A stretch of DNA of 64,000 nt, from positions 11,005-75,004 of the forward strand of contig JACPGI010000005.1 of NCBI GenBank assembly GCA_016182565.1, given 5' to 3'. Under the pieces are notes generated by a model. That model did no database searches. It saw only the letters and a program-made list of their open reading frames with translations, and was not told the origin of the DNA. A program made the translations under genes and the position numbers. This document shows positions 48,726 through 50,453 of this stretch, piece by piece; positions within the stretch are counted from its first letter, which is position 1, and each line of letters opens with the position of its first letter. The DNA is from a candidate division WWE3 bacterium (lineage in GTDB: Bacteria > Patescibacteriota > WWE3 > UBA101185 > UBA10185).

Positions 48726-49115
48726 TTAATCTTCACCTTCTAGAACACAAAATCCTTTTTGAGCACAGGGGATAACAAGATCATTTCCGGAGTTATTCAC
48801 TATTTGTTCTAATTTTTGTAGATTTGTTCGCATGATGGATGCCGGACCCTTTACTACATTTTCATCAAGTCCTAAGTACCCGGCTGTAACGCTAAAAAAT
48901 ATCAGAAAACCAAGTATTATAAGGAACCCAAAAATTGACTGAGTTAAAGATTGCTTTGCACCCTCTAAAGATTTTGCATCTCCCAGAGACATGGCATATT
49001 TATATGCACTCCATAAAATCATTATGATAAATACTCCACCACTTCCGTAGAGTACTAAGTTAAAGGCTCTTGCTACAGAATCTGCAATTGTAGCTATCTG
49101 TGTTCCGTCTATCAT
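48726..49115 (-). CDS. VirB2/TrbC-like pilin candidate, paralog 1 of 4
   Basis: Two hydrophobic helices separated by the conserved loop YKYAMSLGDAKSLEGAKQSLTQSIFGF, shared with three upstream paralogs. Confidence 0.45.
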   Translation of the reverse strand: MIDGTQIATIADSVARAFNLVLYGSGGVFIIMILWSAYKYAMSLGDAKSLEGAKQSLTQSIFGFLIILGFLIFFSVTAGYLGLDENVVKGPASIMRTNLQKLEQIVNNSGNDLVIPCAQKGFCVLEGED

Positions 49116-49558
49116 AGTTGATCCACTAAATAAATATCGGCATTTTCACCACCAACTAAATTAAGAATAATCTTCATGAAGGTGAAGGAGCCTAGCGTAA
49201 GTATTAATGCAAATATAGAGTAGGTTAATGATTGTTTAGCTTCGTTTGTTGCTTTAGCATCTCCTTGAGCCATCGCGTACTTGATACCGGATCTTATTAT
49301 GGCAATCATCGAGATAGATATAGCAAGTGCGAGGAATACATTTATGGCTGGGCCTAAAACATTATCAATTTTTGTCCAGTCTACATTCCCCGAAACTCCG
49401 GCACCAATTCCCACGAAACTAAAATCTATATCCTCAGCATCTGCATACACATTTGGTTTAAAAGAAAACACAACCATACTTGATACAAAAAGTACTGTGG
49501 CAAAAAATATACCCCTTTTATTTAATTTCAAAAACCTGTAAAACCTATTTTTAATCAT
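49112..49558 (-). CDS. VirB2/TrbC-like pilin candidate, paralog 2 of 4, with an N-terminal signal peptide
   Basis: Signal-like FFATVLFVSSMVVFSF...YADA, then two TM helices with the loop IKYAMAQGDAKATNEAKQSLTYSIFAL. Confidence 0.45.
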   Translation of the reverse strand: MIKNRFYRFLKLNKRGIFFATVLFVSSMVVFSFKPNVYADAEDIDFSFVGIGAGVSGNVDWTKIDNVLGPAINVFLALAISISMIAIIRSGIKYAMAQGDAKATNEAKQSLTYSIFALILTLGSFTFMKIILNLVGGENADIYLVDQL

Positions 49559-49656
49559 AGATGAAGACGATAAAAACCCATTATTATTTACTGCTTTTTT
49601 AAAACATCGCTCAAGAAGTCTGGCTCTTGCCAGACTTCTTGACTCAAAACTGACTA

Positions 49657-49980
49657 CTAGAAAGTTGGTGTTACTGTATCATCTAGGTCTTCAACACCTT
49701 GAGCATCAATCATTGAAATGACGATGGTTTTTATAGTAAATGCCCCTAATACAACGATGAAACCGATAACTGCATTTGTTAAAGAAGTTCTAGCTTCCTG
49801 TGCAGCTTTCTGATCTCCCTTGGAGGTTATGTACTGTATACCACCCAAGATTAAGTAAATGATGGTCAAAGACACACCAATACCCAAAACAACGTTAATT
49901 GCTAAAGCAAAGACGTCTTTTAAATTTTCTATTTTACCCAAAGTTATTGGGGTTACGTCTACGGCTAACGCTTTGATCAT
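49657..49980 (-). CDS. VirB2/TrbC-like pilin candidate, paralog 3 of 4
   Basis: Two TM helices with the loop IQYITSKGDQKAAQEARTSLTNAVIGF. Confidence 0.45.
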   Translation of the reverse strand: MIKALAVDVTPITLGKIENLKDVFALAINVVLGIGVSLTIIYLILGGIQYITSKGDQKAAQEARTSLTNAVIGFIVVLGAFTIKTIVISMIDAQGVEDLDDTVTPTF

Positions 49981-50000
49981 AAATTACACCTCCTTCTAAA

Positions 50001-50372
50001 TTAAAATCCGGGATCTCCCCCTGTAATTATACTACCTACTAATATCCTCAAGATGCCAATGGCACCAAGGACGAATATCAACCCCATTATAGCAGCTGTG
50101 AGATCCTCTCTGGCACCTTGTACACTTTTTGGATCTCCAGCACTTGTCATGATGGTATATCCGGCCACAACCACCTTGATCATGCCTATGATAACAATTG
50201 CTGGAAAGACAATGCCATATATTGTTGTAAGCAAATCTTTAAAATCTAGTGCCGGGGGTGTTGGGCATGCGGGTTGCCCCATCCCGCCGCAATCATCTAC
50301 ACCGGCAAATACATGTCTATTAATTCCTAAAAAATTCAAAATTGTATAAAAAAATTCTGTAAAAGGTTTCAT
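50001..50372 (-). CDS. VirB2/TrbC-like pilin candidate, paralog 4 of 4. Start placed at the internal Met; the ORF track extends to 50435.
   Basis: Two TM helices with the loop GYTIMTSAGDPKSVQGAREDLTAAIMGL and a Cys-containing N-terminal region. Confidence 0.4.
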   Translation of the reverse strand: MKPFTEFFYTILNFLGINRHVFAGVDDCGGMGQPACPTPPALDFKDLLTTIYGIVFPAIVIIGMIKVVVAGYTIMTSAGDPKSVQGAREDLTAAIMGLIFVLGAIGILRILVGSIITGGDPGF

Positions 50373-50453
50373 AACTGATATACTATTCCAATGCCCCTTC
50401 CAAGGAATTATCAAGGTTATAGTAATAAGAGTCAAGTAAGATTTATTGGTATC

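What the first reader, a model, noticed from the sequence alone, without database searches (positions are those of the whole stretch)
48726..50435. Four tandem paralogous pilin-like genes
Four consecutive minus-strand ORFs (about 107-148 aa) each have two hydrophobic helices joined by a conserved loop of the form Y-x-[MT]-[ST]-x-GD-x-K-x(3)-[AE]-[KR]-x-[SD]-LT-x-x-[IV]-x-G. One copy has a long signal peptide, as VirB2/TrbC prepilins do. This implies a multi-subunit or antigenically variable pilus or filament for the adjacent T4SS-like system.
Basis: seen in the sequence. Interest (0 to 1): 0.75.

Follow-up and report, generated by a model that had tools for sequence, protein, structure and literature searches.

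The report
Tandem VirB2-like pilin genes, Patescibacteria
Four neighbouring small genes in a candidate-division WWE3 (Patescibacteria) genome encode old, diverged copies of the VirB2-like pilin of the adjacent type IV secretion system; such arrays are already published for this phylum, so this is a good but ordinary example, with signs that one copy is the major subunit and three are accessory.

Summary
Four minus-strand genes (48726-50372) encode homologous two-helix membrane hairpins with a conserved loop, GD-x-K-x4-A-[KR]-x-[SD]-LT. The fourth ORF more likely starts at ATG 50372 (123 aa) than at TTG 50435.

All four hit Pfam PF18895 (T4SS_pilin), but only one exceeds the curated cut-off. 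They lie in a monoderm-type T4SS cluster (VirB4, TrsD-like, PrgI/VirB3-like, putative VirB6) beside dnaA/dnaN. The genome is a WWE3 MAG.

Tandem VirB2-like arrays of 2-11 genes in Patescibacterial T4SS loci are already published (Wang 2023; Quinonero-Coronel 2025). This is therefore a new member of a known kind.

What I add from about 15 related genomes:
- The four copies are ancient paralogue classes kept in a fixed order.
- The second gene (P3) is the best conserved.
- P3-type genes always carry a strong Shine-Dalgarno site and are usually followed by a terminator-like hairpin.
- First-position (P4-type) orthologues carry variable Cys-rich ectodomains.

This favours one multi-subunit structure (a major pilin plus accessory pilins) over antigenic switching. 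No pilus has been demonstrated. Homology to classical VirB2/TrbC is only weakly supported.

The parts
48726..49115 (-). P1, 129 aa: fourth gene of the array. P1-type pilin-like hairpin with a 45-aa C-terminal extension containing two Cys. It has no signal peptide here, unlike most orthologues.
   Evidence: ORF. PF18895 at 25.4 bits, E 1.5e-5, just under the cut-off of 26.6. P1-type clade has 98/100 bootstrap support. Orthologue architecture. Its start overlaps the P2 stop as ATGA.
49112..49558 (-). P2, 148 aa (or 139 aa from TTG 49531): third gene. Pilin-like hairpin preceded by a Sec-type signal peptide ending NVYA|DAED.
   Evidence: ORF. The alternative start is used by gene callers. PF18895 at 18.2 bits, E 0.0027, and TrbC at E 0.25. 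Closest paralogue of P3 (SW z 22.4). The P2 type is a grade next to the P3 clade (monophyletic in 12/100 bootstraps; P3+P2 together in 68/100).
49611..49642 (-). Perfect 14-bp stem-loop directly after the P3 stop, followed by GCGATGTTTT. Candidate partial terminator or attenuator separating P4-P3 from P2-P1.
   Evidence: Terminator scan. RNA fold gives -26.8 kcal/mol, z -4.0, with 0 of 200 shuffles folding as well. A GC-rich hairpin, in several loci followed by a T-run, lies after the P3-type gene in 10 of 12 related loci. The sequences differ between loci.
49657..49980 (-). P3, 107 aa: second gene and candidate major pilin. It has a short leader (MIKALA|VDV...), two helices (residues 20-52 and 57-94) and an acidic C-terminal tail ending TPTF.
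   Evidence: PF18895 at 34.3 bits, above the cut-off of 26.6. AlphaFold2 hairpin, pLDDT 79. 100% identical to NCBI HYV31_02870, candidate division WWE3. Perfect SD (GAAGGAGG). It is the most conserved class, with 66% mean core identity.
50001..50372 (-). It has a candidate leader (...HVFA|G), a short Cys-containing N-terminal segment (DDCGGMGQPACP), the pilin hairpin, and a C-terminus ending DPGF. It is a minimal version of a class that elsewhere carries large ectodomains.
   Evidence: ORF. 123-aa gene call. PF18895 at 18.3 bits, TrbC at E 0.28. P4-type clade supported 100/100. Orthologues have a signal peptide, a Cys-rich ectodomain of roughly 0 to 500 aa (GH42-like in L015) and a C-terminal PF18895 domain.
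50407..50435 (-). Sigma-70-like promoter match TTGACT-17-GATAAT upstream of P4.
   Evidence: 10 of 12 matches, the best in the region. This is a consensus match only. Promoter-like sites were not enriched over shuffles (11 found against 8.1 +/- 3.0).
37881..40469 (-). VirB4-like T4SS ATPase.
   Evidence: PF19044 at 103 bits. NCBIfam NF045971 'VirB4-like conjugal transfer ATPase, CD1110 family' at 367 bits, above the cut-off of 325.
40520..41224 (-). TrsD-like protein, resembling a free-standing VirB4 N-terminal domain.
   Evidence: NF041427 TrsD at 38.7 bits, E 9e-10, below the cut-off of 200. It also matches the N-terminal part of VirB4 models.
41273..43066 (-). PrgI/VirB3-like membrane protein fused to a long C-terminal region.
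   Evidence: PF12666 PrgI at 40.6 bits, above the cut-off of 27, over residues 17-95. Hydrophobic segments at 37-81.
43111..44601 (-). Polytopic membrane protein, a VirB6/PrgH-like candidate by position and topology only.
   Evidence: No family hit. An N-terminal TM, a ~200-aa hydrophilic stretch between hydrophobic segments (topology not predicted), then a cluster of hydrophobic segments. Conserved between the 1074-aa ORF and the PrgI-like gene in related loci.
44676..47900 (+). 1074-aa protein with one TM and a weak C-terminal CHAP-like region. Candidate cell-wall hydrolase (VirB1/PrgK analogue).
   Evidence: CHAP at E 0.0025, 18.7 bits, below the cut-off. TM at 817-844. Conserved position and opposite orientation in 10 related loci at 19-26% identity.
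50391..52250 (+). SpoIID-domain protein with a signal-anchor and coiled coil, divergent from the array. Possible peptidoglycan-remodelling partner.
   Evidence: PF08486 SpoIID at 63 bits. Directly adjacent to the array and divergent from it in nearly all related loci. Linkage to the T4SS is inferred only.

Best explanation
The four genes are anciently diverged paralogues of the VirB2-like 'T4SS_pilin' family (PF18895). They belong to the chromosomal, origin-proximal, monoderm-type T4SS of a WWE3 Patescibacterium.

Each product is a two-helix membrane hairpin. It is inserted with both ends outside the cell and the conserved GD-x-K-x4-A-[KR]-x-[SD]-LT loop in the cytoplasm.

Inferred mechanism: the VirB4/VirB3/VirB6-like machinery extracts these subunits from the membrane and assembles them into one heteromeric filament or conduit through the cell wall towards the host cell.
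- P3 would be the abundant major subunit.
- P4 would be a surface-exposed initiator or tip subunit. Its orthologues carry variable Cys-rich or glycosidase-like ectodomains.
- P2 and P1 would be low-abundance accessory subunits.

Shown here: homology of the four genes, family assignment, T4SS context, conserved order and class structure, and the expression signals. Inferred: membrane topology, polymerisation and the subunit roles.
For: Family and homology:
- All four hit PF18895.
- Pairwise z-scores are 12-22.
- All 120 listed homologues of P3 carry PF18895, and most of the few that have a source name are from WWE3 or Patescibacteria.

T4SS context:
- VirB4, TrsD-like and PrgI-like genes lie on the same strand, 6-10 kb away.
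- The order array, 1074-aa ORF, 496-aa ORF, PrgI, TrsD, VirB4 recurs in many of loci L004-L017, as far as each locus extends.
- Published surveys find VirB2-like pilins near virB4 in 1135 assemblies, and 441 arrays of 2-11 genes (PMC12102498).
- The array of S. epibionticum is essential (PMC10633639).

One multi-subunit set:
- In about 15 related genomes the order P4-type, P3-type (1-3 copies), P2-type, P1-type is kept.
- NJ clades by position have bootstrap support of 100 (P4), 88 (P3) and 98 (P1).
- Core identity is 40-66% within a class and 23-38% between classes.

P3 as the major subunit:
- It has the highest conservation (66%).
- A 5-6 of 6 SD match is present in 20 of 20 P3-type genes, against 12-18% of the other classes.
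- A terminator-like hairpin follows the P3-type gene in the window and in 10 of 12 loci.

P4 as an exposed subunit: orthologues have a signal peptide, an ectodomain (GH42-like at 32.9 bits in L015) and a C-terminal pilin domain.

Topology: Sec leaders precede helix 1 in the P2, P4 and P1 types. The tails are net acidic and the loop carries the K/R residues.

VirB2 likeness:
- The AlphaFold2 model is a helical hairpin.
- A broad family profile aligns collinearly with genuine VirB2/TrbC over 62 columns, score 23.3. The best of 80 column shuffles scores 15.3 and the reversed alignment scores 10.3.
- Weak TrbC Pfam hits fall in the same register.
Against: - No pilus or filament has been seen for any Patescibacterial T4SS. 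Reviews call it a possibility (PMC12857230) and call the T4SS role 'completely unknown' (PMC11665869).
- Monoderm T4SSs generally lack pili.
- Fold searches return only generic helical hairpins and no pilin. A PDB sequence-profile search finds nothing.
- Homology to PF04956 is sub-threshold.
- A PF18895 member in Parolsenella lies among polysaccharide and peptidase genes with no T4SS genes within 8 kb. The family name therefore does not guarantee the function.
- The P2 type is not monophyletic (12/100).
- The SD comparison assumes the first in-frame Met as start for every gene.
- SmpB and other housekeeping genes are also syntenic. Part of the conserved order may simply reflect genome collinearity near oriC.
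- Window P1 lacks the signal peptide that its orthologues have.
Confidence: 0.6

Rival explanations
1. The proteins are membrane-embedded T4SS components that never polymerise outside the cell. They would be small two-TM subunits of the translocation channel or its assembly platform, as small integral membrane proteins are in Gram-positive conjugation systems. The four classes would be distinct structural parts of the channel.
For: Monoderm T4SSs are described as lacking VirB2 pilins and pili (PMC12102498, PMC12857230). The closest named models outside the phylum are Mycoplasma ICE 'pilin-like conjugal transfer' proteins, for which I know of no demonstrated pilus. The fold is a generic TM hairpin. 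Conserved class structure fits fixed structural roles equally well.
Against: Large secreted Cys-rich or glycosidase-like ectodomains fused N-terminally to the hairpin in P4-type orthologues argue for surface display. The major-versus-minor expression pattern (strong SD plus terminator after one gene) is what filament operons show, from my own knowledge of the pap and type IV pilus operons. Lineage-specific duplication of the P3 type suits a bulk subunit.
Confidence: 0.2
2. The copies are alternative, interchangeable major pilins. They would be used for antigenic variation or to match different host strains, as proposed for VirB2 paralogue arrays in Bartonella and Anaplasma and suggested for Patescibacteria.
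For: The copies are strongly diverged (24-36% identity), which is the pattern reported for published arrays (mean 25%, PMC12102498). The P3 and P4 types show lineage-specific duplications (L007, L008, L013, L014, L017). P4 ectodomains are hypervariable.
Against: Each copy has positional orthologues in about 15 genomes and is closer to them than to its own neighbours. There are no repeats, cassettes or inversion sites at the DNA level. Leaders, extensions and expression signals differ systematically between classes. All of this indicates fixed, different roles rather than switching.
Confidence: 0.12
3. They are small membrane proteins unrelated to secretion, such as transporter accessory or envelope-stress proteins. 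They would sit near the T4SS genes only because gene order around oriC is conserved in these small genomes.
For: A bona fide PF18895 member (44.7 bits) in Parolsenella has no T4SS neighbours. Housekeeping genes (smpB, dnaN) share the synteny. Two of the four are below any family threshold.
Against: Pilin-like ORFs also lie 1-3 kb from VirB4/TrsD in distant lineages with different surroundings (L033, L036, L038). They lie near virB4 in 1135 assemblies (PMC12102498). The S. epibionticum array is inside the T4SS cluster and is essential (PMC10633639).
Confidence: 0.04

Closest known systems
VirB2-like pilin arrays of Patescibacterial T4SS loci (S. epibionticum ML1 SEML1_0006-0019 region; N. lyticus TM7x 'Sec-secreted array'; 441 arrays of 2-11 genes in 383 assemblies)
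   Same: Tandem, strongly diverged PF18895/VirB2-like hairpin genes. They lie beside a relaxase-less, MPF-FATA-like T4SS (VirB4, TrsD, PrgI, VirB6-like) near dnaA/dnaN (PMC12102498, PMC10633639).
   Different: This example is from WWE3. With the published HMM criteria (i-Evalue < 0.001), only P1 and P3 would be called; P2 and P4 score E 0.0027 and 0.0025. I did not find the class structure, fixed order, SD/terminator pattern or ectodomain fusions shown here in those papers.
Classical TrbC/VirB2 conjugative pilins (PF04956; A. tumefaciens T-pilin, RP4 TrbC)
   Same: A leader followed by two hydrophobic helices and a short loop. Cleavage-site-like ...A|Q motifs occur in both: A45, A47 and Q48 are invariant in the VirB2 set, and VYA|Q-type motifs occur in the CPR pilins. 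The profile alignment is collinear and above controls. Both are encoded with VirB3/VirB4 homologues.
   Different: Sequence membership is not met: 12 bits against a cut-off of 27.9, and no hit with the narrow profile. The loop is 7 residues longer. The host is a monoderm. There are four classes instead of one pilin plus VirB5. P3-type leaders are only about 4-16 residues and lack a hydrophobic core.
Mycoplasma ICE 'Mbov_0395 family pilin-like conjugal transfer protein' (NCBIfam NF045849) and the MMCAP2_0566 family (NF045848)
   Same: All four window proteins hit NF045849 over the whole hairpin, with E from 2e-8 to 1e-2. The window VirB4 also hits the Mycoplasma ICE VirB4 model. Both hosts are monoderms with MPF-FATA-like systems.
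   Different: All scores are below the curated cut-off (33.6 bits or less, against 40). I found no literature describing the function of that family.
VirB2 paralogue arrays of Bartonella and Anaplasma
   Same: Several tandem, diverged virB2-like genes at a T4SS locus (as cited in PMC12102498).
   Different: Those are thought to serve antigenic variation or host range. Here the copies are conserved orthologous classes with distinct architectures.
Major/minor subunit organisation of other pilus operons (type IV pilus and T2SS minor pilins; the pap operon hairpin after papA). This is a functional analogy from my own knowledge.
   Same: One highly expressed subunit gene followed by a stem-loop, plus several low-expressed paralogous subunits, one of which carries an adhesive or enzymatic domain.
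   Different: The protein folds and assembly machines are unrelated. No T4SS pilus is known to use VirB2-like minor pilins; in classical systems VirB5 plays the tip role.

Membership tests
Pfam PF18895 T4SS_pilin | Score at or above the curated gathering cut-off (26.6 bits) | tested here: met
   P3 scores 34.3 bits. P1 scores 25.4, P2 18.2 and P4 18.3, all below the cut-off. These three are tied to P3 by pairwise z-scores of 12-22. Three of four tested P4-type orthologues also pass: L015 34.2, L013 31.7 and L008 27.7 bits (L014 21.8 is below).
Patescibacterial VirB2 array as defined in PMC12102498 | At least 2 pilin genes (HMM i-Evalue < 0.001, profile coverage > 50%), in tandem or separated by one non-pilin gene | tested here: met
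   P1 (E 1.5e-5, profile 3-69 of 71) and P3 (E 2.5e-8, profile 14-67 of 71) pass. P2 (0.0027) and P4 (0.0025) miss the E-value limit. By those criteria the array would count as two pilins separated by one 'non-pilin' gene.
Patescibacterial VirB2 array as defined in PMC12102498 | Located near virB4 (within +/-20 coding sequences), in a T4SS cluster of MPF-FATA type | tested here: met
   VirB4 (37881-40469) is six genes away. TrsD-like and PrgI-like genes lie in between.
TrbC/VirB2 pilin (PF04956) | Sequence match to the family model above its cut-off (27.9 bits) | tested here: not met
   Best scores are 12.0 bits (P2) and 11.8 bits (P4), E about 0.25. P1 and P3 have no hit.
TrbC/VirB2 pilin (PF04956) | Remote homology detectable by profile-profile comparison | tested here: inconclusive
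   A2 against eight genuine VirB2/TrbC sequences gives probability 0.5%. The 145-sequence family profile gives score 23.3, P 9e-4 and probability 23% over 62 collinear columns. That is above the reversed control (10.3) and 80 column-shuffled controls (maximum 15.3).
TrbC/VirB2 pilin (PF04956) | Two hydrophobic helices joined by a short loop (helical hairpin) | tested here: met
TrbC/VirB2 pilin (PF04956) | Long N-terminal signal peptide removed by signal peptidase | tested here: inconclusive
   P2 has a clear Sec-like leader and P4 a weak one. P3 and P1 have none. Cleavage itself is not testable here.
TrbC/VirB2 pilin (PF04956) | Polymerises into an extracellular pilus (with bound phospholipid; head-to-tail cyclisation in the T-pilin and RP4 pilin) | not testable with these tools
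   No multimer modelling or experiment was available. No pilus has been reported for Patescibacterial T4SSs (PMC12857230).
NCBIfam NF045849 Mbov_0395 family pilin-like conjugal transfer protein | Score at or above the curated cut-off (40 bits) | tested here: not met
   Scores are 33.6 (P3), 27.2 (P4), 23.6 (P2) and 15.5 (P1) bits. These are related proteins, not members of the equivalog.
VirB4-dependent T4SS (context) | VirB4-family ATPase present | tested here: met
   NF045971 at 367 bits, above the cut-off of 325. PF19044 at 103 bits.
Conjugative T4SS (context) | Coupling protein (VirD4) and relaxase present | tested here: not met
   None was found among the ORFs scanned with Pfam across the window. 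Not every small ORF was scanned, and the rest of the genome is unseen.

The most novel reading that the evidence does not exclude
The array may encode a heteropolymeric T4SS pilus of a monoderm, built on a 'minor pilin' logic not described for any T4SS.
- A bulk VirB2-like subunit (P3) would be made with a very short leader that lacks a Sec-type hydrophobic core and ends in a VYA|Q-type site.
- Three dedicated VirB2-like accessory pilins would replace VirB5.
- One of these (P4 type) would be a modular carrier that presents Cys-rich or glycosidase ectodomains at the pilus tip to engage or digest the host surface.
- The shared N-terminal A|Q site and C-terminal P-x-F end could also indicate terminal processing or cyclisation, as in the T-pilin.
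Probability: 0.3. Interest if true: 0.65.

Novelty: new member of a known kind. Interest (0 to 1): 0.35.

Why it matters
Patescibacteria depend on host bacteria, and their T4SS, including its pilin array, is essential in the one species tested. What the system does is still unknown. This window adds no new kind of system. The comparative pattern it leads to turns 'several divergent pilins' into a testable subunit model for the putative first pilus of a monoderm T4SS. That pattern has four parts: four conserved pilin classes in fixed order, one with major-subunit expression signals, one carrying variable ectodomains, and a conserved stem-loop after the major gene. The analysis also shows that standard HMM thresholds miss half of the copies, so published array sizes are probably underestimates.

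Tried and rejected
- **Literal motif.** I replaced it with a corrected core.
- **TTG start at 50435 for P4.** Rejected in favour of ATG 50372.
- **PDB sequence-profile search** with 50 P3 orthologues: no hit even at E 10.
- **Narrow profile-profile test against VirB2:** negative. Only the broad profile gave a weak signal.
- **DNA repeats or cassettes between the four genes:** none, apart from the hairpin and short chance matches.
- **More copies in the window:** none.
- **T4CP or relaxase in the window:** none among the ORFs scanned.
- **Literature on the Mycoplasma Mbov_0395 family:** nothing relevant.
- **Not run.** I did not use the large representative-protein search or a second structure prediction, because the family's size and fold were already clear and from PMC12102498.
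Full report
**1. What is in the sequence**

Four consecutive minus-strand ORFs lie between 48726 and 50435. In transcription order I call them:
- P4: 50001-50435 as listed, 144 aa
- P3: 49657-49980, 107 aa
- P2: 49112-49558, 148 aa
- P1: 48726-49115, 129 aa

They align over an ~80-residue core. Invariant positions are concentrated in the loop between two long hydrophobic segments. Pairwise Smith-Waterman scores are 12-22 SD above 500 shuffles of the same sequences, and no shuffle reaches the observed score. The similarity is therefore homology, not just shared hydrophobic composition. An HMM of the four finds no other copy in the six-frame translation of the 64-kb window.

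The corrected GD-x-K-x(4)-A-[KR]-x-[SD]-LT matches all four.

The TTG at 50435 is the first base of the best promoter-like match in the region (TTGACT-17-GATAAT). Gene calls on independent assemblies of the same genome start P4 at ATG 50372 (123 aa) and P2 at TTG 49531 (139 aa).

P2 carries a Sec-type leader and P4 a weaker one. P3 and P1 have none.

**2. Family and organism**

All four hit Pfam PF18895 (T4SS_pilin). Only P3 is above the curated cut-off (34.3 bits against 26.6). P1 scores 25.4, and P2 and P4 about 18. P2 and P4 also give weak, in-register hits to TrbC/VirB2 (E about 0.25). Precomputed annotation of the same genome marks only P3 and, weakly, P1.

P3 is 100% identical to NCBI protein HYV31_02870 of a candidate division WWE3 bacterium. 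All 120 listed homologues carry PF18895.

In NCBIfam all four hit the Mycoplasma ICE 'Mbov_0395 family pilin-like conjugal transfer protein' model, but below its cut-off.

**3. Relation to classical VirB2/TrbC**

I retrieved eight genuine VirB2/TrbC genes from plasmids and aligned them.
- The narrow P3-orthologue profile shows no relation to them (probability 0.5%).
- A profile of 145 non-identical family members from many genomes aligns collinearly with the whole mature pilin over 62 columns. The score is 23.3, P is 9e-4 and probability is 23%. The Patescibacterial loop is seven residues longer.
- The reversed VirB2 alignment scores 10.3, and 80 column-shuffled versions score at most 15.3.

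Remote homology is therefore plausible but unproven. Membership of PF04956 is not met.

**4. Context**

The array lies in a T4SS cluster:
- VirB4: 37881-40469, NF045971 at 367 bits against a cut-off of 325
- a TrsD-like protein: 40520-41224
- a PrgI/VirB3-like fusion: 41273-43066, 40.6 bits against a cut-off of 27
- a 496-aa polytopic membrane protein: a VirB6-like candidate by topology only
- a 1074-aa protein on the opposite strand with a weak CHAP-like end
- a 247-aa signal-anchored protein

The cluster abuts dnaN, jag, yidC, rnpA and dnaA, so it is close to the replication origin. I found no coupling protein or relaxase among the ORFs I scanned.

This matches the published description of Patescibacterial T4SSs. 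They are MPF-FATA-like, mostly relaxase-less and often next to dnaA/dnaN. VirB2-like pilins lie near virB4 in 1135 assemblies, and there are 441 arrays of 2-11 pilin genes with a mean identity of 25% (PMC12102498). A pilin array in the T4SS cluster of Southlakia epibionticum is essential for epibiotic growth (PMC10633639). A 2025 review calls a pilus 'an intriguing possibility' (PMC12857230). The kind of feature is therefore already known.

**5. What comparison adds**

A scan of species-representative genomes returned 37 loci. Nearly all carry tandem arrays of 2-10 pilin-like ORFs.

Conserved order and classes. In the ~15 WWE3-like loci the order is conserved: a P4-type gene, one to three P3-type genes, a P2-type gene, then a P1-type gene. 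Each protein is closer to its positional counterpart in the window than to the window's other paralogues. A neighbour-joining tree of the 80-column core groups sequences by position. Bootstrap support is 100/100 for the P4 type, 98 for the P1 type and 88 for the P3 type. The P2 type is a grade beside P3 (12; P3+P2 together 68). Mean core identity is 66% within the P3 type, 40-44% within the other classes, and 23-38% between classes. There is no DNA-level repeat between the genes. The duplications are therefore old and the copies are retained as distinct classes.

The classes differ in architecture:
- **P4 type.** A Sec signal peptide, then a Cys-rich ectodomain of roughly 0 to 500 residues, then the hairpin at the extreme C-terminus, in several orthologues ending in D-P-(G)-F. 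In L015 the ectodomain has a GH42-like glycosidase domain at 32.9 bits. The window's P4 is a minimal version.
- **P3 type.** A leader of only about 4-16 residues without a hydrophobic core, ending in a [VI]-[YHL]-A | Q/V/A motif. Among 120 homologues, 114 match a permissive pattern for this, and 72 end in Phe.
- **P1 type.** Usually a signal peptide plus a 19-45 residue C-terminal extension. The window's P1 has lost the leader.

Expression signals also differ:
- Every P3-type gene (20 of 20) has a 5-6 of 6 Shine-Dalgarno match, against 12-18% in the other classes. This assumes the first in-frame Met is the start.
- In the window a perfect 14-bp stem-loop (49611-49642; -26.8 kcal/mol, z -4.0) follows the P3 stop.
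- GC-rich hairpins of different sequence, in several loci followed by a T-run, follow the P3-type gene in 10 of 12 related loci.

**6. Interpretation**

The best reading is a single, multi-subunit, T4SS-associated structure.
- P3 is the abundant major subunit.
- P4 is a surface-exposed initiator or tip subunit, whose orthologues carry variable ectodomains.
- P2 and P1 are low-abundance accessory subunits.

Leaders in front of helix 1, acidic tails and a K/R-bearing loop fit a topology with both termini outside and the loop in the cytoplasm. From my own knowledge, this is the topology of VirB2 and F-pilin. Extraction by VirB4 and polymerisation on the VirB3/VirB6-like platform is inferred by analogy.

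It is not excluded for the lineage-specific P3 and P4 duplicates.

**7. Caveats**

- No filament has been seen in any Patescibacterium.
- These could be non-polymerising membrane components.
- A genuine PF18895 protein in Parolsenella has no T4SS neighbours, so the family name is not proof of function.
- smpB and other housekeeping genes share the synteny. Part of the conserved order may reflect general collinearity near oriC. Against that, pilin-like ORFs also sit 1-3 kb from VirB4/TrsD in distant lineages (L033, L036, L038).

**8. Verdict**

The feature is a new member (WWE3) of a known kind, the Patescibacterial VirB2-like pilin array. Interest is modest. The class, order and expression pattern is a useful, testable refinement, not a new system.

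Noticed in passing
window 50391-52250 (+); related loci L003-L031: A 619-aa SpoIID-domain protein (signal-anchor plus coiled coil) lies directly next to the pilin array and divergent from it. It keeps this position in nearly all related loci. It could be the peptidoglycan-remodelling enzyme of a system reported to lack VirB1 in most genomes, or it could be merely syntenic.
   Followed up: partly
window 44676-47900 (+): A 1074-aa protein with one TM (817-844) and a weak C-terminal CHAP-like region (E 0.0025). It is conserved on the opposite strand between the array and the VirB6-like gene in 10 related loci, at only 19-26% identity.
   Followed up: partly
L015:6089-7930 (+) and other P4-type orthologues (L008, L010, L012, L013, L014): Pilin hairpins are fused to large secreted Cys-rich ectodomains. 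In L015 the fusion has a GH42-like glycoside hydrolase domain (32.9 bits) N-terminal to a PF18895 domain (34.2 bits). L014 has three such genes in tandem.
   Followed up: partly
P3-type proteins: window 49657-49980 and P0001-P0120: There is a very short N-terminal leader (median about 11 residues, no hydrophobic core) ending in a signal-peptidase-like [VI]-[YHL]-A | Q/V/A motif. The C-terminus usually ends in Phe (72 of 120), often as T-P-x-F. The same A|Q site is invariant in genuine VirB2. How so short a leader would be processed is unexplained.
   Followed up: partly
L035:7890-8249 (Parolsenella sp., Actinomycetota): A PF18895 member above the Pfam cut-off (44.7 bits) sits beside DUF5058, an M20 peptidase and polysaccharide-export genes. 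No T4SS gene lies within 8 kb. The family is therefore not restricted to T4SS loci.
   Followed up: partly
window 48726-50372 versus NCBIfam NF045849 and NF045848: The nearest named relatives outside the phylum are Mycoplasma ICE 'pilin-like conjugal transfer' proteins. The window's VirB4 also hits the Mycoplasma ICE VirB4 model. This suggests the pilin-like genes may have travelled with the monoderm MPF-FATA system and were not co-opted from diderm systems, which the 2025 survey left open.
   Followed up: no
window 32598-37285: dnaA (-), rnpA, yidC, jag/KhpB-like and dnaN (+) lie immediately beside the T4SS cluster, so the system is origin-proximal. This matches the pattern reported in PMC12102498.
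   Followed up: yes
window 52338-54903 (+): A conserved trio runs between the SpoIID gene and smpB in many related loci: a 195-aa membrane protein, DUF5657 (76 aa, two TM) and a 584-aa protein. Their function is unknown, and they may or may not belong to the system.
   Followed up: no
window 16001-20000: GC content rises to 0.43-0.455 here, against about 0.36 elsewhere. The 595-aa ORF at 18238-20025 (-) has no Pfam hit. This may be acquired DNA.
   Followed up: no
window 55018-56233 (+): smpB is followed by a complete tmRNA (tag ADENAYIAQPALVGALA; 143.8 bits). This is ordinary housekeeping.
   Followed up: yes
L027 and L031 (Woesebacteria), L019, L025, L028: Arrays of 7-10 tandem pilin-like ORFs. 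In L027, L031 and L025 the first-listed copies are longer and score best against P4, next to the SpoIID gene. The class structure may extend beyond WWE3, but I did not analyse this phylogenetically.
   Followed up: no
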